Both the position numbers and the translations under genes were made by a program. From an uncultured virus (IMG/VR IMGVR_UViG_3300047444_000174) (taxonomy: Duplodnaviria; Heunggongvirae; Uroviricota; Caudoviricetes): a stretch of DNA of 64,000 bases. Each line of letters begins with the position of its first letter. The first letter of the stretch is position 1. The notes beneath the pieces were generated by a model. It ran no database searches. It worked only from the letters and a program-made list of their open reading frames with translations, and was not told where the DNA came from. The stretch lies in IMG/VR virus record IMGVR_UViG_3300047444_000174; one strand, given 5' to 3'. Below, piece after piece: positions 47,778 through 60,781 of the stretch.

Positions 47778-48674
47778 TCATTCATCGGCCCAGTCCGTCC
47801 CGACCTTCTCCGGAATGAATATCTCTGTCGTGAGTCCGCTTAATGCGAGGCGATTCGCAAGCGCGAAGGCTGCGCTCTGGCCGGTATAGTTGGCGTCGTT
47901 ATCGCCAAAGACGATCACGTGCTTGACGCCTTCCGGCACTTCCCAATCGCGCATACCACCAGCGGAGATTGCGGCCCACGTCGGCACGTCGAATCGCACG
48001 GACGCCCGCAGCGCGGTTTCGATCCCTTCGGCAATCCCAAGGCACTCGTACACTTCAGTCAGGCGTATGGCGCCGGTTTTGATCGTGCCGGCCATGACCT
48101 TCTTCGGCTCGCCGACCGGGGCCTTGCCGCCGTTCCCATCCAGCCAGGTGCGATGCATGGTCGATGCCTTGCCGTCCGGCATCGTCACCGTGGCGAGCAT
48201 CGCCGGGAATGAATGCGTTGCGTCATAGCGAAGATTCGGGTGATATCGAATCGCGCTCGAGACAGTCTCGATGCCGGTTCGGCGGTTCAGATAGGCCCAC
48301 ACCGGATCGCCCTGGGTTACTGGCTTGGATTCGGTCCAGGCCCGCTTCAATGCCGCGCGCTTCTGCTCATCGCTGAACTCCTGGCGAGGACCGTCCTGTT
48401 TCGAGACACCCAGGACGCGCTCAACTTCGCGGGCAGCCTGCACAAATGACCAACCGTTGAGTTTCTGGATCAGCGCAAAGCCATCGCCGGCACCATCGTT
48501 CGAGCAAAACCACGTACCGCGCCCGTCTTTGTTGTCAAACCTCCAGCGGTCTTTCCCGCCGCATAGCGGGCAAGGACCGTGCTTCTTCGACAGGAACTCA
48601 GGAGCGATGCCCAGCGACGTCAGAATCGATTCCCAACGTCCCACGCACAGGTCGCCGATCTTTTCACTACGCAT
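47778..48674 (-). CDS. DNA primase (P4-alpha-type Zn finger plus TOPRIM)
   Basis: HGPCPLCGGKDR.RFD, AEGIETA, FGDND. Confidence 0.9.
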   Translation of the reverse strand: MRSEKIGDLCVGRWESILTSLGIAPEFLSKKHGPCPLCGGKDRWRFDNKDGRGTWFCSNDGAGDGFALIQKLNGWSFVQAAREVERVLGVSKQDGPRQEFSDEQKRAALKRAWTESKPVTQGDPVWAYLNRRTGIETVSSAIRYHPNLRYDATHSFPAMLATVTMPDGKASTMHRTWLDGNGGKAPVGEPKKVMAGTIKTGAIRLTEVYECLGIAEGIETALRASVRFDVPTWAAISAGGMRDWEVPEGVKHVIVFGDNDANYTGQSAAFALANRLALSGLTTEIFIPEKVGTDWADE

Positions 48675-50322
48675 GCTTCATCCCCTTGGCGAAAGCGATG
48701 TTGCGGGACTGGATGAATTTCTTCGTTTCGGCGGACGGCTCACAAGCGAGGTGCGTCATGCTGTTCGGCCACACGCCGTAGCGGTCGCGGTAGACGTGTG
48801 CAACGCGACCGTCCGACCATCCCTTCATCGACTGGTAGCCGAGCAGTTCGGAATAGAACTGCTGCTTTTCGGCCATCGTCGCTTTGACCTTCTTCGCGCC
48901 ACGCTCCTGCTTGACGAGCTCGCCGTCTGCAGCGTGGATCGTGTTTTGTTTTTCCGGTGCGAAGCCGCATTGCGGGCACTTGTGCGCCGTCTTCATGAAC
49001 GAGCATTTCCCGCAAGCTGTCGGCAGCTTTTCTTCTTTCTTCTTCGACGTCGATTGCTTTTTCGGCTTGCCGTCGTCCAGCTCGAGCGGCAGATCGTCAG
49101 TCGGGAAGCCTAGGTGTTTCACGGTGCCAGAGTGGTCAAGAATCAGAGCCCGCGTCTTGCCTTCAGACGGGCGCAATACGCGGCCCGCCATCTGCACGTA
49201 GCGGATCAGGCTTTTCGTCGGGCGGGCCAGAATCAGGGTTCGGCAGAAGGGCGCATCCCAGCCTTCGGCGAGCAGCGAAGCGTTGCTGATGATGGTCGTT
49301 TGACCGCTCTCAAAGCGTTTCAGGGCATCGCGGCGGGCGTCCGTGTCGTCGTAGCAATCGATGTGCTCCGCACTTACGCCGGCAGCAAGGAACTGCTCGA
49401 CGATGTGCTTGCTGTGGGCGATGTTGGATGCGAAGACGACCGTAGGCGTACCCTTCGCGAGGCGCATCCAGTGCGAGACGATATCGCCGATCAGTTCTGG
49501 CTTGTCGGTCGCGTTGCCGACGTCCATGTCCGAAAAGTCGAGTTCGCCGAACTTGTTGCGAACCTGCTTGATGCCGGTCATGTCCGGTTCGGACGGCGCG
49601 TAGATATCGCAGTCGACCAGGAATCCTTCGTCGATCAGTTCGCGGATGCTCGACGCGACGACCATGCGTTCGAACAGCGGGCCGCCGAGCTTGTCGTAGA
49701 CCTTGCCCAGACCTTTGGCGAAGGGCGACGCAGACAGGCCGATGACGGGCTTCCCGGCGAACGTTTCGATGATGCCGCGGTATTCCTTCGAACCGGCGAC
49801 ACCGTGCGCCTCGTCGATGATGATGAAATCGACGTCGGGGATGCCGCGCTTCGCGATGGTCTGGATCGAGCAAACCAGCACGTGTTCATACTCGCGGCGG
49901 CTGTTTTGCCCCTGAATCACACCGTGCGAGATGCCGTACTTGTTGAAGGTGCGTGATGCTTGCTCGACGAGCTGGATGCGGTTAGCGAGGAACGCAACGC
50001 GCTTGCCCTTGAGCCGCGCACCCTTGACCAAGCCAACGGACAAGGCGGTCTTGCCGCAGCCGGTCGGGCCGTAGAGCATCTGGCGCAGGTAACCCTCTCC
50101 CAAGCCAAGGCGCAGGGCTTGAATCGCAGCGGCCTGATACGGGCGCAGTTCGAGTTCGGCCGCCGCTACAGTGGTAGTAGTAAGGTTAGTAGTTACTCCT
50201 TGGCTAGGTGTAGTTAATCCATTCCCTTCCCTTCCATTCCCTTCCGTCCATGAAGACTCAAAGATTGCTCCGTGAGTATCGTAGGAGTACTCATTGACCG
50301 CGTGATTAAAAAGAGCATTCAT
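48667..50322 (-). CDS. SF2 DEAH helicase with C-terminal Zn ribbon
   Basis: LRPYQ, PTGCGKT, DEAH, SASP, QMAGRVLR, CxxC-CxxC. Confidence 0.92.
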   Translation of the reverse strand: MNALFNHAVNEYSYDTHGAIFESSWTEGNGREGNGLTTPSQGVTTNLTTTTVAAAELELRPYQAAAIQALRLGLGEGYLRQMLYGPTGCGKTALSVGLVKGARLKGKRVAFLANRIQLVEQASRTFNKYGISHGVIQGQNSRREYEHVLVCSIQTIAKRGIPDVDFIIIDEAHGVAGSKEYRGIIETFAGKPVIGLSASPFAKGLGKVYDKLGGPLFERMVVASSIRELIDEGFLVDCDIYAPSEPDMTGIKQVRNKFGELDFSDMDVGNATDKPELIGDIVSHWMRLAKGTPTVVFASNIAHSKHIVEQFLAAGVSAEHIDCYDDTDARRDALKRFESGQTTIISNASLLAEGWDAPFCRTLILARPTKSLIRYVQMAGRVLRPSEGKTRALILDHSGTVKHLGFPTDDLPLELDDGKPKKQSTSKKKEEKLPTACGKCSFMKTAHKCPQCGFAPEKQNTIHAADGELVKQERGAKKVKATMAEKQQFYSELLGYQSMKGWSDGRVAHVYRDRYGVWPNSMTHLACEPSAETKKFIQSRNIAFAKGMKHA

Positions 50323-50452
50323 TTCACTGAAATTCCGGTGTGGGGATCGCCGACTTAGAGGGGCGATTGATGACTTGATGTTTCTTGAATCCGTGAATAT
50401 GGAGAAAAATCTCTCCATCACTCACTGAGTACTCACTGAGCAATCCGTGAGT
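50268..50452. repeat. Iteron-like repeats (candidate origin)
   Basis: ACTCACTGAG at 50420 and 50431; TCCGTGAGT at 50269 and 50444; GAGTACTCA at 50285 and 50427. Confidence 0.5.
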
Positions 50453-51771: not shown

Positions 51772-51844
51772 CGATAGCATTTGCTCTCGCAAAGCGCAAG
51801 CACTTGCTCGCAAAACAATAGGATTTGCTATCACAGCAAATGCT
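51772..51844. promoter_or_regulatory. OR operators (four AGCANNTGCT-type palindromes) and pR
   Basis: AGCATTTGCT 51776, AGCACTTGCT 51799, AGGATTTGCT 51820, AGCAAATGCT 51835; minus-strand TTGCGC-17-TATCGT. Confidence 0.75.
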
Positions 51845-51866
51845 AGTTTTCGGGTTTAATTTGGCC

Positions 51867-52664
51867 ATGGATATCCACGCACATCGCCGGAACAGGCTCC
51901 AAGAGCTTGTCGACAAAGAGGCAGACGGAACGGCCGCAGAATTTGCACGGAAACATAATCTGGACGCAACGCGGATCAGGCAGCTCTTAAGCGCTACCTA
52001 TCGCAACGGAAGAGGCTTTGGAGAGGGGGCAGCAAGAAATCTCGAGACGGCACTCGGGCTTGACCACCCTTACTTCGACTTGGGGCTTGAGAGCGCTATT
52101 GCCTCTCAGCATATTTCCAATATTTCCGATGCATCAATCAGCGCACTAAACACGGGCAACATTGGTCAATCAAAAAGCGCAGTCGCCGTTAGTCTGGATG
52201 AAGGAGACCTACCCAATCCAACATCCGATGAGTTCGCTTTCGTGCCCCAATTAGATATCGCCGCGGCCTGCGGCAACGGCCGGTTTGAAGACCATGTGGT
52301 AGTCAAGGGTGGAATGGCGTTCAAGCGCTCGAAGCTGCGCGAACTGGGCGTTCCAGAAAACGCCGCGAGACTTATTGTCGCCGCCGGCGGGAGCATGTGG
52401 CCAAAGATTCAGGACGGACGTGACGTCCTCATAAATACCGCAGATATCGAGCCCGAGGATGGCAAGGTCTACGCTATATGTATGCCGCATGATGGGCTCG
52501 TATTGAAGCGCCTTGTATGGGAATATCACCCGCAGGTCGGCGCGGAAGTTTGGGTCATCAAGAGCGACAATCCGGACAAGACCACCTTCCCCGACAAGAT
52601 TCTGCCGCCCGACGATCGGACGCGCATCGCTGGACGTGCGGTTTGGACGGACAGCGTGCTTTAG
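51867..52664 (+). CDS. cI: CI repressor (HTH plus S24 autoprotease)
   Basis: ACG cleavage site, GGSM.P (Ser), LKRL (Lys), SDN. Confidence 0.92.
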   Translation: MDIHAHRRNRLQELVDKEADGTAAEFARKHNLDATRIRQLLSATYRNGRGFGEGAARNLETALGLDHPYFDLGLESAIASQHISNISDASISALNTGNIGQSKSAVAVSLDEGDLPNPTSDEFAFVPQLDIAAACGNGRFEDHVVVKGGMAFKRSKLRELGVPENAARLIVAAGGSMWPKIQDGRDVLINTADIEPEDGKVYAICMPHDGLVLKRLVWEYHPQVGAEVWVIKSDNPDKTTFPDKILPPDDRTRIAGRAVWTDSVL

Positions 52665-52767: not shown

Positions 52768-52986
52768 ATGAAGGAACTGCTGGACGTCTTGGCTGGCGTT
52801 GGTTCCGCTCTGAACGCATTCGGCTCTGTGCCGCAGTATGACGTTCCCCGCAGGGGCGATCAGGCGCGCGATTTCGCCTTGATCGGAGGGGATATTCGTC
52901 GCGCTACAGATCGAGTCGAAAAAACAGCACACAAAGCACTGACAGAGCGCAATGGGACGACAAACAACCGCACAGGTGAAAGGTAA
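52768..52986 (+). CDS. Immunity-region small protein
   Basis: GGAG RBS; TATAAT at 52722. Confidence 0.6.
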   Translation: MKELLDVLAGVGSALNAFGSVPQYDVPRRGDQARDFALIGGDIRRATDRVEKTAHKALTERNGTTNNRTGER

Positions 52987-53353
52987 GGATCACAGCCTGA
53001 CCGTTTCTCATCATGAAACGGATGCGCCGCTCTTGCCGATGGTGCAGATCGAGCGCCTCAAAGAGATCCTTCCCGATAAAGTAGATTGGGTTTTTGAGCA
53101 GGCCAAGGCAGAGGGTGATTTCCGCCGCAGTGAAACGAGCCGCGTGAACTGGTTCAAGTTCATTGATCGTATGGCCGGCATCGTGTCCGGGTTTTTAATT
53201 GGGGTCATCGGATTAGGCGTCGCCGCCTATCTGTCAATGCATGGCCATGACACCGTGGCCGGCATAATCGGCGGAACAACCGTCGTGGGCTTAGTGTCCG
53301 TGTTTGTGATTGGCCAGATTAAAGCCCCATCTCAACGCCAGAACAATAAGTAA
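52952..53353 (+). CDS. DUF2335-like two-TM membrane protein
   Basis: PL.P...ERL.EI.P...D..F..A..E..FR followed by two TM helices. Confidence 0.7.
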   Translation: MGRQTTAQVKGKDHSLTVSHHETDAPLLPMVQIERLKEILPDKVDWVFEQAKAEGDFRRSETSRVNWFKFIDRMAGIVSGFLIGVIGLGVAAYLSMHGHDTVAGIIGGTTVVGLVSVFVIGQIKAPSQRQNNK

Positions 53354-53356
53354 TCG

Positions 53357-53380
53357 AAGCCCAGCCCCGCTGGGCTTTTT
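53357..53380 (+). terminator. Rho-independent terminator
   Basis: AAGCCCAGC-ccc-GCTGGGCTT followed by T-run. Confidence 0.7.
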
Positions 53381-53580
53381 CATTTCCGCCTCTGCGCGAA
53401 CCCCTCCCTCCACAACGTAGCGCCGACTGACGTCAATAGCGCCAGGTCGTCTCCCTCGAACCTCTCCCAGTTCTCTGCCAGCCAGCCCGCGAAGCCTGCG
53501 CACGCCTCATCAAGCGGCACGTCAGCTCGGCCTTCGATGTTCAGCCGCTCGAAGATGGTGATTACGTCTGCTGGCGTCAT
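53380..53580 (-). CDS. Small hypothetical protein
   Basis: AGGAG RBS. Confidence 0.6.
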   Translation of the reverse strand: MTPADVITIFERLNIEGRADVPLDEACAGFAGWLAENWERFEGDDLALLTSVGATLWREGFAQRRK

Positions 53581-53648
53581 ATCTAGCTCCTATCCAACTC
53601 CCAGTCTAGCCCCGTAGGCAGCGATAAAAAAATTTATCAACAAGCGAT

Positions 53649-53686
53649 AGCTTTTGCTTGCGTTAAACGAGAGCGTTTGCTATTGT
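53649..53686 (+). promoter_or_regulatory. pL promoter with two OL operators
   Basis: TTGCGT-17-TATTGT; AGCTTTTGCT 53649 and AGCGTTTGCT 53672 match the OR consensus. Confidence 0.78.
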
Positions 53687-53737
53687 TCATCCATCGAAGC
53701 AAGCAACACCGCACCAACCACTAACCGGAGAGCGAGC

Positions 53738-53965
53738 ATGAGCCAGAACGCACGTACGCAGGGGATCGCAGCATTCAATGATGTAGCGAAGCCGGTGTAC
53801 CAGAATCCGTACGCTTTCTCTGCAGACCCGAATTCCGACTATGAGCAGTTTCGCCTTGGATATTTCGTGGCGCGGCACGAAGGCCATCAAAGCGTTATCC
53901 AAAACATGCGCGGCGCGGAACTGCCAGCCGGATACATCAAAGGGTCGCAGCGTTACACCGCATAA
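53738..53965 (+). CDS. First pL gene, hypothetical
   Basis: GGAG RBS; NPY...F..GY motif. Confidence 0.7.
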   Translation: MSQNARTQGIAAFNDVAKPVYQNPYAFSADPNSDYEQFRLGYFVARHEGHQSVIQNMRGAELPAGYIKGSQRYTA

Positions 53966-54006
53966 AGCTCAAAACCGCCGCAGAGCACCGCGGCAACAGG
54001 AAGGAA

Positions 54007-54109
54007 GGTCGAAACCCGGGCCAAACCTAGTGCATGAGTGCACACGCTATAGGCGAGTACCTAACAGTACGCACCCGGGTCTGAGCGTAACGCGCTCACT
54101 GACGAGACC
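54007..54109 (+). ncRNA. Hammerhead ribozyme, type II
   Basis: GGTC-GAAA-CCCGGG...CCCGGG-TC-TGAGCG/CGCTCA-CTGACGA-GACC: full catalytic core and all three stems. Confidence 0.9.
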
Positions 54110-54164
54110 GTGAATAACCGCAGTAGAGGAACACAGGCGCACGGCGTCGCCTGGTGGGGCAAGA

Positions 54165-54175
54165 GATCTTTAACA
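54165..54175 (+). promoter_or_regulatory. boxA-like antitermination element
   Basis: GATCTTTAACA versus consensus GCTCTTTAACA, in the pL leader. Confidence 0.55.
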
Positions 54176-54177
54176 AC

Positions 54178-54857
54178 GTAGTGGTTTGAGTTTGATCAGA
54201 GCTGGCGGCTTGTGTCCGTACGCGGAACATGACGAGCAGTTGGCCATGATAGTCGCCAGCCCTGATCACATTCGAACCACTGCAACAGAAGGCATACCAG
54301 TAATGGCGGGGCCAACGCGCTACCCCGGAAAAGATCGGCGCCTATCAGTGATCCGCCTGGTCGACAGATTCGACTATAGAACGGATCGCTGATTGATAAC
54401 CGCCGCACCTAGGCCGGAGCCAGCATAGCTGGGAGTAGTCGGATTGGTGCGGCAAAGCAGTTTTTCGTGAATGGCGTTGTGCGGCGTGGAGTGACACGCA
54501 CAGTAGGCGTAGAAGGCGTTGCCCGCTTGCGGCCAATGTGCATCGCATGCGGGGCGTTGGAGCCGAAGACACCCGGGTGGAGCTTAAGTGCTTTGAAGCT
54601 GCGGGGCATACAGAGCTGGGCTGGTGACCCAGACACAGCGCCATTCACGAAGAGCTGCAGCATTGAGGCGAGAGCATTGAACTCCCTGCATAGCTGAGTA
54701 TCTGCTGTAGCGAACCGCGAGACCGCGTTCTCGTGCAGTAACTCCGGCTCATAGGCTCCCTGCACAGTACCAGTGCTCTTTCTTGAATGCTGAAGCTTCT
54801 AGCGATTCTCCTTACGGTTGCCGATTCTCGCGAGTCGGTAGCGATAAGGGGAATTGC
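54178..54857 (+). ncRNA. Tandem array of helix-closed structured RNA domains
   Basis: 33-bp, 12-bp, 8-bp, 25-bp, about 22-bp and long-hairpin stems with + strand G.U pairs; no credible ORF. Confidence 0.7.
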
Positions 54858-54909
54858 GCATCGGCGTATTGACGCCTGTTAGTACAACGAATTGGATCAG
54901 GAGACTGAA

Positions 54910-55122
54910 ATGAGCAAATGGTTCGAAGTGAACGTTACGACTTGGAAGCGGGTGCTCGTCGAAGTCGAGGATGACGAGACCGCAGAAGACGCCGTTGATA
55001 TCGCTGTCAACGAGCATTTGATCGGCAAAGACGGCGAAGCATCTGCGCATAGCGACGAACCGCTGGATGGCCTGAAGCTGGCAAGCGCACGGCGCCATGC
55101 AGACGAAGTAATGACGCTTTAG
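54910..55122 (+). CDS. Small acidic protein
   Basis: AGGAG RBS; V.VE....AEDA. Confidence 0.7.
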   Translation: MSKWFEVNVTTWKRVLVEVEDDETAEDAVDIAVNEHLIGKDGEASAHSDEPLDGLKLASARRHADEVMTL

Positions 55123-55274
55123 GAGCCCACTATGTTCTACAGCGACTATGGAATCCGTGTCTACCAGAGACGCGCATCCAACTACATTTTGCGTTTCGCG
55201 GCGCACTTCGACCAGTACCTGAATGCGCGATTTGTCCGCTCGATCGGCTACGACGAAATCTGCTGGTGCTGACC

Positions 55275-55493
55275 ATGACCACCTCAGACGCATGGCGCAA
55301 CCGCCCCCTCACAGTTCGCACCCTCGAGCACTGCGATAGCTGCGGCACGTTGAAGGAAGACGTCAAGCAGCGCGAGGCAGCTAACTACTACCCGCGCTGG
55401 TCGATCAAGCTCAAATCGTGCGTCGGCTGTTTTGAGGCGGCCAAGTCCAAGGCTAGTGCCGAGGCGGTCAACGAGATTTATGGCTACTGCTGA
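55275..55493 (+). CDS. Zn-finger-like small protein
   Basis: CDSC...CVGC. Confidence 0.6.
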   Translation: MTTSDAWRNRPLTVRTLEHCDSCGTLKEDVKQREAANYYPRWSIKLKSCVGCFEAAKSKASAEAVNEIYGYC

Positions 55494-55542
55494 CTCACAA
55501 ACGCATCACGAACCCGCTTCACGACTCATATACGAGGCAATT

Positions 55543-55683
55543 ATGAACATCAACATTCACTACGTCTGGGCCGGGATCATCGCCTGGAGCGCGCTGTCAT
55601 TGCTTGCGACGGCCTTCATCCGCGGCGCCAGCGACCGACTCGATGATTCGCCGAAGCGGAAAACTAAGTTGGGGGTGCAGTGA
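55543..55683 (+). CDS. Small single-TM protein
   Basis: GAGG RBS; hydrophobic helix. Confidence 0.5.
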   Translation: MNINIHYVWAGIIAWSALSLLATAFIRGASDRLDDSPKRKTKLGVQ

Positions 55684-55952
55684 TGGCTGATCAATTGAAA
55701 GTCTGGTGGATTCCGCAGATCCCCGGCGCGTCGTTCGAAGTGCGGGTCGCCAGCGTGGACGAGGCGAAGAAGATTCTGACCGTGCTGGCCGACTACGACA
55801 TTTTCCAGTACGAGAACCGCATCAAGGGCGACTACTGCAATGCGGGTGGCCTGGTGACGCTGGAAGACGGCGAGTGGACCGACTGGGAAAACGACGAAGG
55901 CGACAGCATCGACGACGTTATGCGGGAGGAAGCATGCGACCAACAGAGCTAG
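55683..55952 (+). CDS. P22 gp17-like protein (superinfection-exclusion related)
   Basis: LKVWWIPQIP...F.V.V.S..EA...L..YD.FQYEN.IK.DY.N.GGL...EW.DW. Confidence 0.78.
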   Translation: MADQLKVWWIPQIPGASFEVRVASVDEAKKILTVLADYDIFQYENRIKGDYCNAGGLVTLEDGEWTDWENDEGDSIDDVMREEACDQQS

Positions 55953-57701: not shown

Positions 57702-57889
57702 CCCGCTACGACAACGCTCTTCACGTCATGGAGCTGCAAGGCGGCTCGTTCGTGAAGTCACTGGCCAACTGCTACCTCATGGCCGATCCATTCAACAAAG
57801 CAAAGCTGCGCGAAACGTTCGCCGGGTACTTCGATGTGTATGAGGCGAGGTTCGAGCAGTGGAAGGAACAACATAAGGAGGCTGCGTGA
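57698..57889 (+). CDS. Hypothetical protein
   Basis: GGSFVKSLA...AD..N..KL...F. Confidence 0.65.
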   Translation: MTRYDNALHVMELQGGSFVKSLANCYLMADPFNKAKLRETFAGYFDVYEARFEQWKEQHKEAA

Positions 57890-58353
57890 GAGAAATCCCG
57901 CTTACGCGAGGCTTGGTGGCCTTGGTTGACGACGCGGATTATGAGGAATTGGCGAAGCACAAGTGGTTTTGTGATAGCCGCGGATACGTGGCGCGGAAGG
58001 TTCCCCATCCTCTCAAGCGCCAGGTAACCGAGCTAATGCATCGCGTAATTCTGGGCCTGGAATATGGCGATCCTCGGCAAGGAGACCACAGGAATCGCAA
58101 TCGACTGGACAATCAAAGGTCCAATCTTCGGCTTGCGAGCAATGGAGAAAACCAGCGCAATAAAGGCGACTATGCAACAAACACATCGGGGGTTAGGGGC
58201 GTGTATTGGTACAAACCAACCCAGCGATGGAAGGCGCAAATTAATGTAGATGGAAAGAAAAAGCACCTTGGGTATTTCCAGTCCATTGATGACGCATCAG
58301 AGGCATATAAACAGGCTGTACGCCAACTGCATGGCGAATTTGGCGCCGTTTAG
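57886..58353 (+). CDS. HNH-AP2 homing endonuclease
   Basis: MHR.I, DHRNRNRLDN.R.NLR, NTSG.RGV, LG.F...A..AY. Confidence 0.9.
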   Translation: MREIPLTRGLVALVDDADYEELAKHKWFCDSRGYVARKVPHPLKRQVTELMHRVILGLEYGDPRQGDHRNRNRLDNQRSNLRLASNGENQRNKGDYATNTSGVRGVYWYKPTQRWKAQINVDGKKKHLGYFQSIDDASEAYKQAVRQLHGEFGAV

Positions 58354-59565: not shown

Positions 59566-59765
59566 GCGAAGCAGTCGAGATTTTCGGCGCCATTAAGGAC
59601 CACAAGAAGGCGCTGCGAGCGAAGTTCGGAATCAACTGTCCGCAGTGCGCAATCAAACGCCCGAAAGCGCATCCGACGATCCTTCTGCCCCAGCAACGTT
59701 GCCGGGTGGATGGATATGTTGATCCGCGCCCGGAACTCACGCAAGAAGAATGGAGTTCGGTATGA
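59562..59765 (+). CDS. Small Zn-binding protein
   Basis: CPQC...C; coupled ORF. Confidence 0.65.
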   Translation: MSEAVEIFGAIKDHKKALRAKFGINCPQCAIKRPKAHPTILLPQQRCRVDGYVDPRPELTQEEWSSV

Positions 59766-60781
59766 GTAACGCCGTCGCATTAATCACGGACGAGATTTAC
59801 GGTGTCCGCGCCAGCTTCGAGGCCGTAAGCGTCGATCGATCGATTAACTTCGAGCGCGAGGCTGGCTTTGCTATTCAGATGATCACCGCCAGCGACTACG
59901 CCCTCGGCGTTGCAATGGGCAACAAGCAGTCGGTCATCGATGCCGTCACGAATGTGGCCGCCATCGGGATCAGCCTGAATCCTGCCAAGAAGCAAGCGTA
60001 CCTAGTCCCCCGAAAGAACAAGATTTGTCTGGACCTTTCGTACATGGGCCTGATCGACCTCGCCATTCAGGAGGGCGGCATCAAGTGGGCGCAGGCCCAA
60101 CTGGTCTACGAGAAAGATACGTTCGCGCTTAACGGCATGGACAAGATGCCGCTACACCAGTTCAACCCGTTTGGAAAGGACCGCGGCGAGATCGTGGGCG
60201 TTTATGTGGTCGTGAAGACAGCGGACGGAGAATACTTGACGCACACGATGACCATTGCCGACGCCTATGCAATCCGCGACAGATCGGACTCTTGGAAGAA
60301 GCAGCAACCCGGCAAGCGCGGTCCGTGGGAAAGCGACCCTGGCGAGATGATCAAGAAGACGTGCGTCAAGCAGGCGTCGAAGTACTGGCCCAAGACGGAT
60401 CGTCTGGACAAGGCGATCCACTATCTGAACACGGACGGCGGGGAGGGTCTAGCGGAATTGCGACCACAGGCGCCAGGAGGTTGTGCGCCAGATGTGCTGA
60501 CGGCGTGGTGCAACAAGGCGAAAGAAGCGCCGAGTGAAGCAGCGCTGCAAACGGTATGGGAAGGCGGCCTCGCGATCATCAATGCCAGTGGCGACCGCGC
60601 TGCGTACAACACGTTCAAGGCGACCGTGAAGAACCGTAAGGACGAGCTAACAAAGGTTCCGAACGACGGTAAGACGATCGACATGCCGCCCGCCGCACCT
60701 CAGCGCGAACCGGGTTCCGATGATGCCGATTTTCAAGCTGACTTTCAACGTCAGATGGCCAAAGAAGGAGCCGCGCAATGA
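59762..60781 (+). CDS. recT: RecT/Redbeta-family single-strand annealing protein
   Basis: GISLNP...AYLVP, SY.GL..LA, PW.....EM..KT..K.A.KYWP. Confidence 0.9.

What the first reader, a model, noticed from the sequence alone, without database searches (positions are those of the whole stretch)
54007..54109. Complete type II hammerhead ribozyme in the pL early transcript
Seen: stem II GGUC(54007-10)/GACC(54106-09); GAAA 54011-14; stem III CCCGGG(54015-20)/CCCGGG(54074-79) capped by a 53-nt branched insert; GUC triplet with predicted cleavage after C54081; stem I UGAGCG/CGCUCA; core CUGACGA 54099-105. Every conserved core nucleotide is present. Known: hammerheads occur in bacterial and prophage intergenic regions, mostly with unknown roles. 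Inference: self-cleavage separates the first pL gene from the downstream RNA array and gives it a 5'-OH end. The short stem II and large stem III insert could make cleavage regulatable.
Basis: partly seen in the sequence, partly recalled or inferred. Interest (0 to 1): 0.85.

Follow-up and report, generated by a model that had tools for sequence, protein, structure and literature searches.

The report
Phage type II hammerhead ribozyme, confirmed
This is a genuine self-cleaving hammerhead RNA of a kind already known to be common between phage genes, unusual only for a large extra branch in one arm and for sitting just before an antitermination-like signal.

Summary
Bases 54007-54109 (+) carry a complete type II hammerhead. 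All core nucleotides are present, stems II, III and I have 4, 7 and 6 pairs, and the predicted cut lies between C54081 and U54082. The minimum-energy fold is exactly this junction. It is not chance: 0 of 200 shuffled windows gave a motif as good.

It belongs to a large phage family. I collected 150 unique well-formed copies from viral contigs, and all three stems covary. A covariance model built from 89 of these, without the window, hits 54007-54109 at 61.1 bits, E 3e-16. It is the only strong hit in the window. Rfam misses it, and compact relatives also fall under Rfam's cut-off.

The 53-nt stem III insert is unique to this phage. Its size is just past the family range (67 against at most 66 nt).

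Context: the early operon of a temperate, probably Paraburkholderia, phage. The ribozyme lies 42 nt after a 75-codon ORF and 8 nt before a conserved hairpin plus boxA-like site.

Type II hammerheads flanking prophage genes are in print (PMC3088659). This is a new member of a known kind. Cleavage itself is untested, and the "regulatable" idea has no support.

The parts
54007..54010 (+). Stem II, 5'-proximal strand GGUC (positions 11.4-11.1). It pairs with 54106-54109.
   Evidence: The family shows compensatory stem II variants.
54011..54014 (+). Core G12 A13 A14 and A15.1
   Evidence: GAAAC is found in all 89 rows of alignment A2, although 82 of those rows were recovered through patterns that fix it.
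54014..54020 (+). Stem III 5' strand (A15.1 plus CCCGGG)
   Evidence: Stem III covaries in the family.
54021..54073 (+). 53-nt insert capping stem III. It is predicted to form three small hairpins and is specific to this phage.
   Evidence: Fold. No copy elsewhere in the window or in the 157 loci then held. No large-insert relative with the same stem I in metagenome contigs. Unchanged in DNA contigs of 3 further runs.
54074..54080 (+). Stem III 3' strand (CCCGGG plus U16.1)
54081..54082 (+). C17 and N1.1. The predicted scissile bond lies between C54081 and U54082.
   Evidence: Position relative to the core and alignment to model R2. Cleavage itself was not tested.
54082..54098 (+). Stem I hairpin: 6 bp with loop UAACG. 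The first loop base U and the closing G-C pair match the family consensus.
   Evidence: Loop position 1 is U in 136 of 137 family copies with a 17-nt stem I, and UAACG occurs 9 times among them.
54099..54105 (+). Core C3 U4 G5 A6 C7 G8 A9 (CUGACGA)
   Evidence: CUGANGA is found in all 89 rows of A2.
54106..54109 (+). Stem II, 3'-proximal strand GACC (10.1-10.4)
53738..53965 (+). Upstream 75-codon ORF with no family match. Its mRNA would end in the stem III structure after cleavage.
   Evidence: Translation. No PHROG or Pfam hit. The upstream gene differs in relatives.
54117..54176 (+). Conserved downstream element: ACCGCAGUAGAGGAAC (54117-54132), hairpin 54134-54153, and boxA-like GAUCUUUAACAA (54165-54176). 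It would lie on the 3' cleavage product.
   Evidence: 89.6-90.1% identical in L006, L004 and L155, and aligned with few differences in L156. Coordinates. The rrn boxA sequence as printed in PMC2724277.

Best explanation
Bases 54007-54109 encode a type II hammerhead self-cleaving ribozyme in the rightward early transcript of a temperate phage whose host is probably Paraburkholderia. Once the 3' strand of stem II (54106-54109) is transcribed, the three-way junction can form, and the RNA cuts itself between C54081 and U54082.

The 5' product is the mRNA of the 75-codon ORF. It ends in the large stem III structure with a 2',3'-cyclic phosphate. The 3' product starts with a 5'-OH at U54082 and the stem I hairpin. 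It carries the hairpin plus boxA-like site and about 800 nt of highly structured, apparently non-coding leader ahead of the next genes.

After the cut, only the 4-bp stem II holds the two products together. Release should therefore be fast and the cut effectively irreversible. The likely role is the one proposed for this class in prophages: cutting a long phage transcript into separately stable and separately translated pieces. The insert in stem III is most likely a tolerated lineage-specific expansion.

Shown here: the motif, its non-chance status, family membership and family covariation. Inferred: cleavage in this copy, the promoter, and the biological role.
For: Core and stems were read directly, and the MFE fold equals the hammerhead junction. 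No shuffled window (0 of 200) had an equally good motif.

The exact stem I and core pattern found 10 viral loci. Each has GGTCGAAAC plus a short, covarying stem III in the right place.

On 43 ungapped copies, chosen by pattern and length and not by pairing, 99.7% of cells pair. 171 cells are changed on both sides. 0 of 500 shuffles reach these values, and the slid controls pair in 29-41% of cells.

Seven further copies were found by the model in flanking DNA. They show compensatory stem II changes (GGCC/GGCC, GAUC/GAUC, AGUC/GACU, UGCC/GGCA, AGCC/GGCU).

Model R2 was built without the window. It hits 54007-54109 end to end at 61.1 bits, E 3.3e-16, and the next window hit scores 13.8 bits.

The family context fits intercistronic processing. 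A stop triplet lies within 14 nt upstream in 113 of 150 copies, and an SD-like site plus start codon lies within 45 nt downstream in 114 of 150. Several contigs carry 2-4 copies.

Published support: type II hammerheads are common in bacteria, often flank genes in prophages, and are proposed to process long phage transcripts (PMC3088659, passages). Three prophage-context type II hammerheads of Desulfovibrio vulgaris cleave in vivo and in vitro (PMC8782182, abstract and passages).
Against: No cleavage data exist for this copy. The runs found are kept as assembled contigs, which cannot show RNA ends.

Rfam gives no hit at gathering score. Its best hit is a partial Hammerhead_3 match of 17.4 bits against a cut-off of 48.5.

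The first custom model, R1, did not align the full element. It reported a wrong shorter register, 54052-54109, at 27 bits. Only the second model, trained with long-stem-III members, recovered it.

No Watson-Crick complement of 3 nt or more was found between loop I and the 14-nt 3' tail. The pseudoknot that speeds many type II hammerheads (PMC3088659) therefore appears absent here. It is also absent, at 4 bp or more, in 127 of 150 family copies.

With 100-nt flanks, the predicted equilibrium probability of the active fold falls to 0.002, although relatives show similar values.

The insert has no relatives, so its structure and neutrality cannot be tested by covariation. Unlike 114 of 150 family copies, no gene start follows within 45 nt, so the processing role is less obvious here. 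No sigma-70-like promoter was found upstream.
Confidence: 0.85

Rival explanations
1. It is a hammerhead by descent but crippled. The 53-nt insertion into stem III, together with the lack of a loop I to tail pseudoknot, makes it slow or inactive at cellular Mg. It would then be a decaying relic or merely a conserved junction sequence between mosaic phage modules.
For: The insert is unique to this phage. The stem III element of 67 nt is the longest seen, against a family median of 18 and a maximum of 66. No loop I to tail complement was found. Similarity between the window and its relatives begins inside the ribozyme, at about 54066-54078, so the element sits at a mosaic boundary. In other samples the nut-like element is preceded by different sequence (tables 5 and 7).
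Against: Every core nucleotide and every core-adjacent pair is intact. Stem III is closed by 7 pairs, six of them G-C, which is at least as strong as the 5-6 pairs typical of the family. Other members with 43-66-nt stem III elements keep perfect cores. The predicted probability of the active fold, 0.48 alone and 0.36 with 30-nt flanks, equals or exceeds that of compact relatives. The sequence is unchanged in contigs from three other runs, though these may be the same phage.
Confidence: 0.1
2. It is an allosteric or otherwise regulated hammerhead. The branched stem III insert binds a protein or small molecule, or refolds, and thereby switches cleavage. This would control how much transcript stays joined to the upstream ORF.
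For: The insert is predicted to form a multi-branch structure rather than a simple extended hairpin, unlike most long-stem-III relatives. The Discussion of PMC3088659 raises regulated natural hammerheads as a possibility.
Against: No Rfam aptamer or other family matches the insert, even at E up to 10. No homologue of the insert exists in the collections searched, so there is no conservation or covariation. The short stem II is the family norm and not a special feature. The insert does not compete with the active fold in the thermodynamic model.
Confidence: 0.04
3. It is a chance match to the hammerhead descriptor in GC-rich intergenic DNA.
For: The core has few specified bases. The folding energy z-score is only -1.89. 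Rfam gives no hit at gathering score.
Against: 0 of 200 shuffled windows gave an equal motif. The custom-model match is 61.1 bits, E 3e-16. The 3' half plus flank is 90-95% identical to hammerheads in related phages, whose 5' halves are also in place.
Confidence: 0.01

Closest known systems
Type II hammerhead ribozymes of bacteria and prophages (Perreault et al. 2011, PMC3088659; passages read)
   Same: Same permuted topology: stems I and III capped, stem II open. Same invariant core. Same phage context, with copies flanking small genes. Same proposed role of cutting long phage transcripts into gene-length pieces.
   Different: No pseudoknot of 3 bp or more between loop I and the 3' tail. A 53-nt branched insert sits in stem III. 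It is followed by a hairpin plus boxA-like site and not by a gene start. I could not check whether this GGUC/GACC subfamily is in their alignments, because the type II part of the supplement is cut off in the stored copy.
Rfam RF02276 Hammerhead_II
   Same: The model recognises compact members of the same phage family at 25.5-33.7 bits, with E values of 2e-7 to 4e-5 in small records.
   Different: All of these lie below the 37-bit gathering score. The window copy gave no Hammerhead_II row at all. Routine Rfam annotation therefore misses this subfamily.
Desulfovibrio vulgaris type II hammerheads loc 1-3 (cyPhyRNA-seq, PMC8782182; abstract and passages read)
   Same: Type II hammerheads next to phage-like genes, two of them close together. 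They were shown to cleave in vivo and during in vitro transcription.
   Different: Different host and sequences, and compact size (5' fragment 29-32 nt, 3' fragment 39 nt). I made no sequence comparison with them.
Family members with long stem III (L143, L145, L136-group, L147)
   Same: Same core, stem II and loop I consensus. Their stem III elements are 43-66 nt long.
   Different: Their extensions fold mostly as one long imperfect hairpin. The window's is predicted as three short hairpins and shares no sequence with them.
rrn and lambda nut antitermination sites (boxA and boxB; PMC2724277, passages read)
   Same: The neighbouring element, not the ribozyme, has a hairpin followed by GAUCUUUAACAA. 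The paper prints rrn boxA as UGCUCUUUA followed by ACAA..., and places the stem-loop upstream of boxA in rrn. The copy in L006 reads GCUCUUUAACAAU, identical to the printed rrn stretch.
   Different: The window copy has A where rrn has C (GAUC against GCUC). No N-like arginine-rich protein was identified. Binding of NusB/NusE and antitermination are untested.

Membership tests
Hammerhead ribozyme (any type) | Invariant core C3 U4 G5 A6 N7 G8 A9, G12 A13 A14, A15.1-U16.1, H17 (criteria as listed in the Methods of PMC3088659) | tested here: met
   CUGACGA at 54099-54105. GAA at 54011-54013. A54014 pairs with U54080. C54081 is H17.
Hammerhead ribozyme (any type) | Three helices around the core with no mispair next to the core (N10.1-N11.1, N1.1-N2.1, A15.1-U16.1) | tested here: met
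   G54106-C54010, U54082-A54098 and A54014-U54080. The helices have 4, 6 and 7 pairs.
Hammerhead ribozyme (any type) | Mg-dependent site-specific self-cleavage giving 2',3'-cyclic phosphate and 5'-OH ends | not testable with these tools
   Only assembled contigs of public runs were available, so RNA ends cannot be seen.
Type II hammerhead | Stems I and III closed by loops, stem II open to the flanking transcript | tested here: met
   The order is stem II strand, GAAA, stem III hairpin, UC, stem I hairpin, CUGACGA, stem II strand.
Type II hammerhead | Pseudoknot of 4 bp or more between loop I and the nucleotides just 3' of stem II. This is present in a majority of type II motifs according to PMC3088659 and is not obligatory. 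| tested here: not met
   No Watson-Crick complement of 3 nt or more between GUAACGC and the 14-nt tail. Only 23 of 150 family copies have 4 or more.
Phage GGUC...GACC type II hammerhead family (defined here) | Significant full-length match to a covariance model built from other members | tested here: met
   R2: 61.1 bits, E 3.3e-16, model positions 1-60 of 60, at 54007-54109. R1, built only from 52-nt members, failed to span the insert.
Phage GGUC...GACC type II hammerhead family (defined here) | Family-specific positions: A just 5' of stem II, a purine just 3' of it, loop I starting with U after a G-C closing pair | tested here: met
   A54006, G54110, G54087-C54093 and U54088. Family frequencies are 149 of 150 (A at -1), 140 of 150 (purine at +1), and 136 of 137 (loop U).
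Rfam hammerhead models (RF02276, RF00008 and clan CL00010) | Score at or above the curated gathering threshold | tested here: not met
   0 hits at gathering score in the window. The best is Hammerhead_3 at 17.4 against 48.5 bits, and it is only a partial, wrong-topology alignment. Compact relatives reach 25.5-33.7 against 37 bits for RF02276.
boxA / nut-type antitermination site (neighbouring element 54117-54176) | boxA consensus next to a stem-loop on the nascent transcript | tested here: inconclusive
   GAUCUUUAACAA at 54165-54176 differs at one base from the rrn stretch printed in PMC2724277. The hairpin is at 54134-54153. The element is conserved in 5 related loci. No functional or protein evidence.

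The most novel reading that the evidence does not exclude
The ribozyme is functionally coupled to the antitermination leader that follows it. Cleavage 8 nt ahead of the conserved hairpin plus boxA-like element would free the elongating polymerase, and its nut-like RNA, from the upstream ORF's mRNA and from anything loaded on that mRNA, such as ribosomes or Rho. The unique branched stem III insert would act as a sensor that tunes this step. If so, this would be a natural regulated hammerhead acting in transcription-elongation control and not only in mRNA trimming.
Probability: 0.05. Interest if true: 0.8.

Novelty: new member of a known kind. Interest (0 to 1): 0.3.

Why it matters
The biological role of bacterial and phage hammerheads is still described as an open question (review PMC6155905, passages read). 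This copy adds three small points.

- **A gap in annotation.** A very large phage subfamily, with 150 unique copies collected here, falls under Rfam's gathering scores. It is therefore invisible to standard annotation.
- **Tolerance of insertions.** Stem III of this family accepts insertions of up to about 60 nt while the core stays perfect.
- **An unusual position.** In a small group of Paraburkholderia-type phages the ribozyme sits directly ahead of a hairpin plus boxA-like site in a long structured early leader, and not ahead of a gene. This gives a concrete lysogen or induction system in which to test what a phage hammerhead is for.

None of this changes what is known about the class.

Tried and rejected
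- **Rfam.** The search at gathering score over the whole window gave nothing. At E up to 10 on 53900-54250 it gave only a partial Hammerhead_3 alignment and a chance L19-leader hit. On 53500-55700 it gave two miRNA-precursor models that merely reflect a long hairpin.
- **GenBank phages.** blastn of 53600-54900 found no match.
- **Whole-genome search.** No genome is held for this window.
- **tRNA/tmRNA scan.** None in the window.
- **Model R1.** Built only from 52-nt copies, it reported a wrong shorter register, 54052-54109 at 27 bits. That register uses GGCGAGU inside the insert, which lacks U11.2 and has G in place of A14. I rejected it as an artefact of the insert length. R2 then gave the full element.
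- **Relatives carrying the insert.** There were none in viral contigs: the window's own form did not appear among 19 loci. There were none in metagenome contigs. There were none elsewhere in the window or in the held loci.
- **Second metagenome scan.** It gave one relative, L157. Its cleavage triplet reads GUA and its stem I is irregular. I did not analyse it further.
- **Public runs.** Only contigs were available. They show the identical element in three further rhizosphere DNA runs and mosaic relatives, but no RNA ends. One soil RNA contig covers 54297-54463 at about 92% identity and not the ribozyme, so it is no evidence of expression of the ribozyme.
- **Pseudoknot by eye.** GUAA pairs with UUAC in L001 and L006, but the window has UAAC, which gives an A-A mismatch. 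I rejected a pseudoknot for the window.
- **boxA enrichment downstream of family hammerheads.** 2 of 145 downstream against 1 of 145 upstream, so it is not a general feature.
- **Long-range pairing 53991-54005 with 54809-54823.** 13 of 15 complementary. By my own rough estimate this is about chance level for a 1-kb region.
- **Supplement of PMC3088659.** The type II alignments lie beyond the stored part, so I could not check whether this subfamily is listed there.

Full report
**1. The observation**

- GGTC 54007-54010 pairs with GACC 54106-54109 (stem II, 4 bp).
- GAAA is at 54011-54014.
- A54014 plus CCCGGG 54015-54020 pairs with CCCGGG 54074-54079 plus U54080 (stem III, 7 bp). It is capped by 53 nt, 54021-54073.
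- C54081 is the H17 residue.
- TGAGCG 54082-54087 pairs with CGCTCA 54093-54098 (stem I, loop UAACG).
- CTGACGA 54099-54105 is the C3-A9 core.

The order of the parts is that of a type II hammerhead. RNAfold of 54000-54116 returns exactly this junction as both MFE and centroid (-38.3 kcal/mol). The energy z-score is only -1.89, so energy alone proves little.

I wrote a type II descriptor and ran it on the window and on 200 dinucleotide-preserving shuffles. The real window has this one hit on either strand. Two shuffles had a loose hit, and none had a hit as good as the real one.

**2. Standard libraries**

Rfam 15 gives no hit in the window at gathering score. At permissive settings it gives only a partial, wrong-topology Hammerhead_3 alignment of 17.4 bits against a 48.5-bit cut-off. 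The window has no match among GenBank phages, and no genome is held for it.

**3. Relatives**

*Exact stem I and core pattern.* Searching viral contigs for it found 10 loci. All have A-GGTCGAAAC and a short hairpin in the expected place upstream. The hairpin sequence differs between loci while staying paired.

The same pattern with a 37-67-nt gap returned 19 loci. Together they give 150 unique well-formed copies.

*Covariation.* I used the 43 copies of the commonest length. They align without gaps and were not chosen for pairing.
- 99.7% of cells form standard pairs.
- 171 cells are changed on both sides.
- 10 of the 12 pairs of stems I and III show compensatory changes.
- No shuffle reaches these values (0 of 500), and slid controls pair in 29-41% of cells.

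Stem II was fixed by my patterns. However, seven further copies that the covariance model found in flanking DNA carry GGCC/GGCC, GAUC/GAUC, AGUC/GACU, UGCC/GGCA or AGCC/GGCU. All three stems are therefore supported by covariation.

**4. Does the window copy belong to the family?**

Model R1 was built from the 43 compact copies. It reported only a shorter false register in the window, 54052-54109 at 27 bits. I think this is because the 103-nt element exceeds what that model allows: the longest relative it spanned was 102 nt.

Model R2 was built from 89 copies, including those with a long stem III, and without the window. It aligns 54007-54109 end to end at 61.1 bits, E 3.3e-16. The next best window hit scores 13.8 bits.

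The window copy also has the family-specific positions:
- A just 5' of stem II, seen in 149 of 150 copies;
- a purine just 3' of stem II, seen in 140 of 150;
- U as the first loop I base, seen in 136 of 137;
- the loop UAACG, which is one of the common loops.

Rfam's own type II model, RF02276, scores compact members at 25.5-33.7 bits, under its 37-bit cut-off. The subfamily as a whole is therefore missed by Rfam thresholds.

**5. The insert**

Stem III elements in the family have a median of 18 nt and reach 66 nt. The window's is 67 nt. Other long ones fold mostly as single long hairpins, whereas the window's is predicted as three small hairpins.

The insert has no copy elsewhere.
- It has none in the window or in the held loci.
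- It has no relative in the viral scan.
- It has none in the metagenome scan.
- The closest relatives, L006 and L156, have a 15-nt loop at that place.

The element with its insert appears unchanged in DNA contigs of three other rhizosphere runs, which may simply be the same phage.

In a thermodynamic model, the probability that all three stems form is 0.48 alone, 0.36 with 30-nt flanks and 0.002 with 100-nt flanks. These values fall inside the spread seen for relatives. Nothing therefore marks the insert as a switch. A 4-bp stem II is the rule in this family.

**6. Context**

PHROG hits give this layout:

| Coordinates | Strand | Feature |
|---|---|---|
| 47778-50421 | - | primase and helicase |
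| 51825-52664 | + | CI-like repressor with an S24 peptidase domain |
| 52952-53353 | + | membrane protein |
| 53356-53378 | + | terminator-like hairpin |
| 53380-53580 | - | conserved 66-codon ORF |
| 53738-53965 | + | 75-codon ORF with no family |
| 54007-54109 | + | hammerhead |
| 55680-55952 | + | sie-like gene |
| 57886-58353 | + | HNH gene |
| 59750-60781 | + | RecT gene |

This is the layout of the pL side of a lambdoid phage. The promoter itself is inferred, because the consensus scan found none.

The host is probably Paraburkholderia. The only two genome matches to the ribozyme-plus-tail pattern are in P. antibiotica and a Paraburkholderia MAG. L156 (the MAG) shares 72-82% identity over neighbouring segments. 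L155 (P. antibiotica) shares shorter stretches at 87-100%.

**7. What follows the ribozyme**

In 114 of 150 family copies an SD-like site and a start codon follow within 45 nt. In 113 of 150 a stop triplet lies within 14 nt upstream. That fits the published idea of cutting polycistronic phage RNA between genes (PMC3088659).

The window is different. Eight nt after stem II begins a conserved element. It consists of ACCGCAGUAGAGGAAC (54117-54132), a hairpin (54134-54153) and GAUCUUUAACAA (54165-54176). The last part differs by one base from the rrn boxA plus spacer as printed in PMC2724277. L006 matches that printed stretch exactly.

In L004 and L155 the same element lies one small gene further downstream of the ribozyme. 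About 730 nt then follow without a convincing ORF. They contain helices with arms of 31 and 25 nt. One stretch, 54283-54450, is conserved with L156.

**8. Mechanism**

The cut between C54081 and U54082 follows from the alignment to the family and from hammerhead chemistry. The 5' product would end with the stem III structure and a cyclic phosphate. The 3' product would begin with a 5'-OH and the stem I hairpin. After cleavage the two are held together only by the 4-bp stem II, so they should separate quickly. These steps are inference.

Related prophage type II hammerheads have been shown to cleave in vivo (PMC8782182). I could not test cleavage or RNA ends for this copy, because the public runs that hold the sequence are kept as contigs only.

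**9. Verdict**

This is a genuine type II hammerhead and a new member of a known kind. It has two unusual but unexplained features: the unique branched stem III insert, and the position directly ahead of a hairpin plus boxA-like site. The central interpretation is supported. The suggestion that the copy is regulatable is not supported.

Noticed in passing
window 54117-54176: A conserved element lies 8 nt after the ribozyme. It consists of ACCGCAGUAGAGGAAC, a hairpin at 54134-54153, and GAUCUUUAACAA at 54165-54176. The last part is one base off the rrn boxA plus spacer printed in PMC2724277. The element is conserved in L006, L156, L004/L155 and L157. L001 shows a variant with a different hairpin; L009 shares the 5' motif and hairpin but shows no boxA-like stretch. 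It looks like a nutL-like or rrn-like antitermination site.
   Followed up: partly
window 54180-54281: A long hairpin with 31-nt arms that are 84% complementary. It produced spurious miRNA-precursor hits in Rfam. The segment is replaced by unrelated sequence in L156 and L006. From recall, it resembles the RNase III hairpin in the lambda N leader.
   Followed up: partly
window 54283-54450: A stretch conserved with L156 that includes an apparently compensatory hairpin: CGGGG...CCCCG in the window against AGCG...CGCT in L156. One soil metatranscriptome contig covers 54297-54463 at about 92% identity. It may be a structured non-coding RNA.
   Followed up: no
window 54457-54658: A long-range helix whose 25-nt arms are 88% complementary and enclose 152 nt. 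The 5' arm region, 54456-54492, is 100% identical in L004 and L155, although the flanks differ. It also appears as an isolated shared block in another sample's contig.
   Followed up: no
L002 2209-2272 (-): A Twister-P5 ribozyme at 49.2 bits, above its gathering score. It lies about 730 nt downstream of that contig's hammerhead on the same strand. The same locus has two further hammerheads (L002 4251-4310 and 4814-4884). This is a mixed ribozyme array in one phage.
   Followed up: partly
Family loci, e.g. L015, L018, L033, L043, L139: In 15 of 150 family copies, the 5 nt right after stem II are the exact reverse complement of the first five core bases: AUCAG with CUGAU, or GUCAG with CUGAC. 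The two covary. This is a possible alternative hairpin that would sequester the core. It is not present in the window, whose tail is GUGAA.
   Followed up: partly
window 53736-54117 against contigs of runs X3 and X4: In other rhizosphere samples, relatives replace the segment holding the 75-codon ORF and the ribozyme. One replaces it with about 203 other letters, and the nut-like element is then preceded by different sequence (tables 5 and 7). The ribozyme sits at a mosaic module boundary.
   Followed up: no
window 53380-53580 (-): A 66-codon minus-strand ORF (phrog_21839, function unknown). It lies between the repressor operon's terminator and the early operon. It is 81-85% identical at the DNA level in L001, L006 and L156, while its neighbours vary.
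   Followed up: no
L050 and L139, downstream of their hammerheads: Two unrelated family members also have a hairpin and a UCUUUAACA-type boxA-like motif within about 60 nt after the ribozyme. Across the family the arrangement is rare: 2 of 145 downstream against 1 of 145 upstream.
   Followed up: partly
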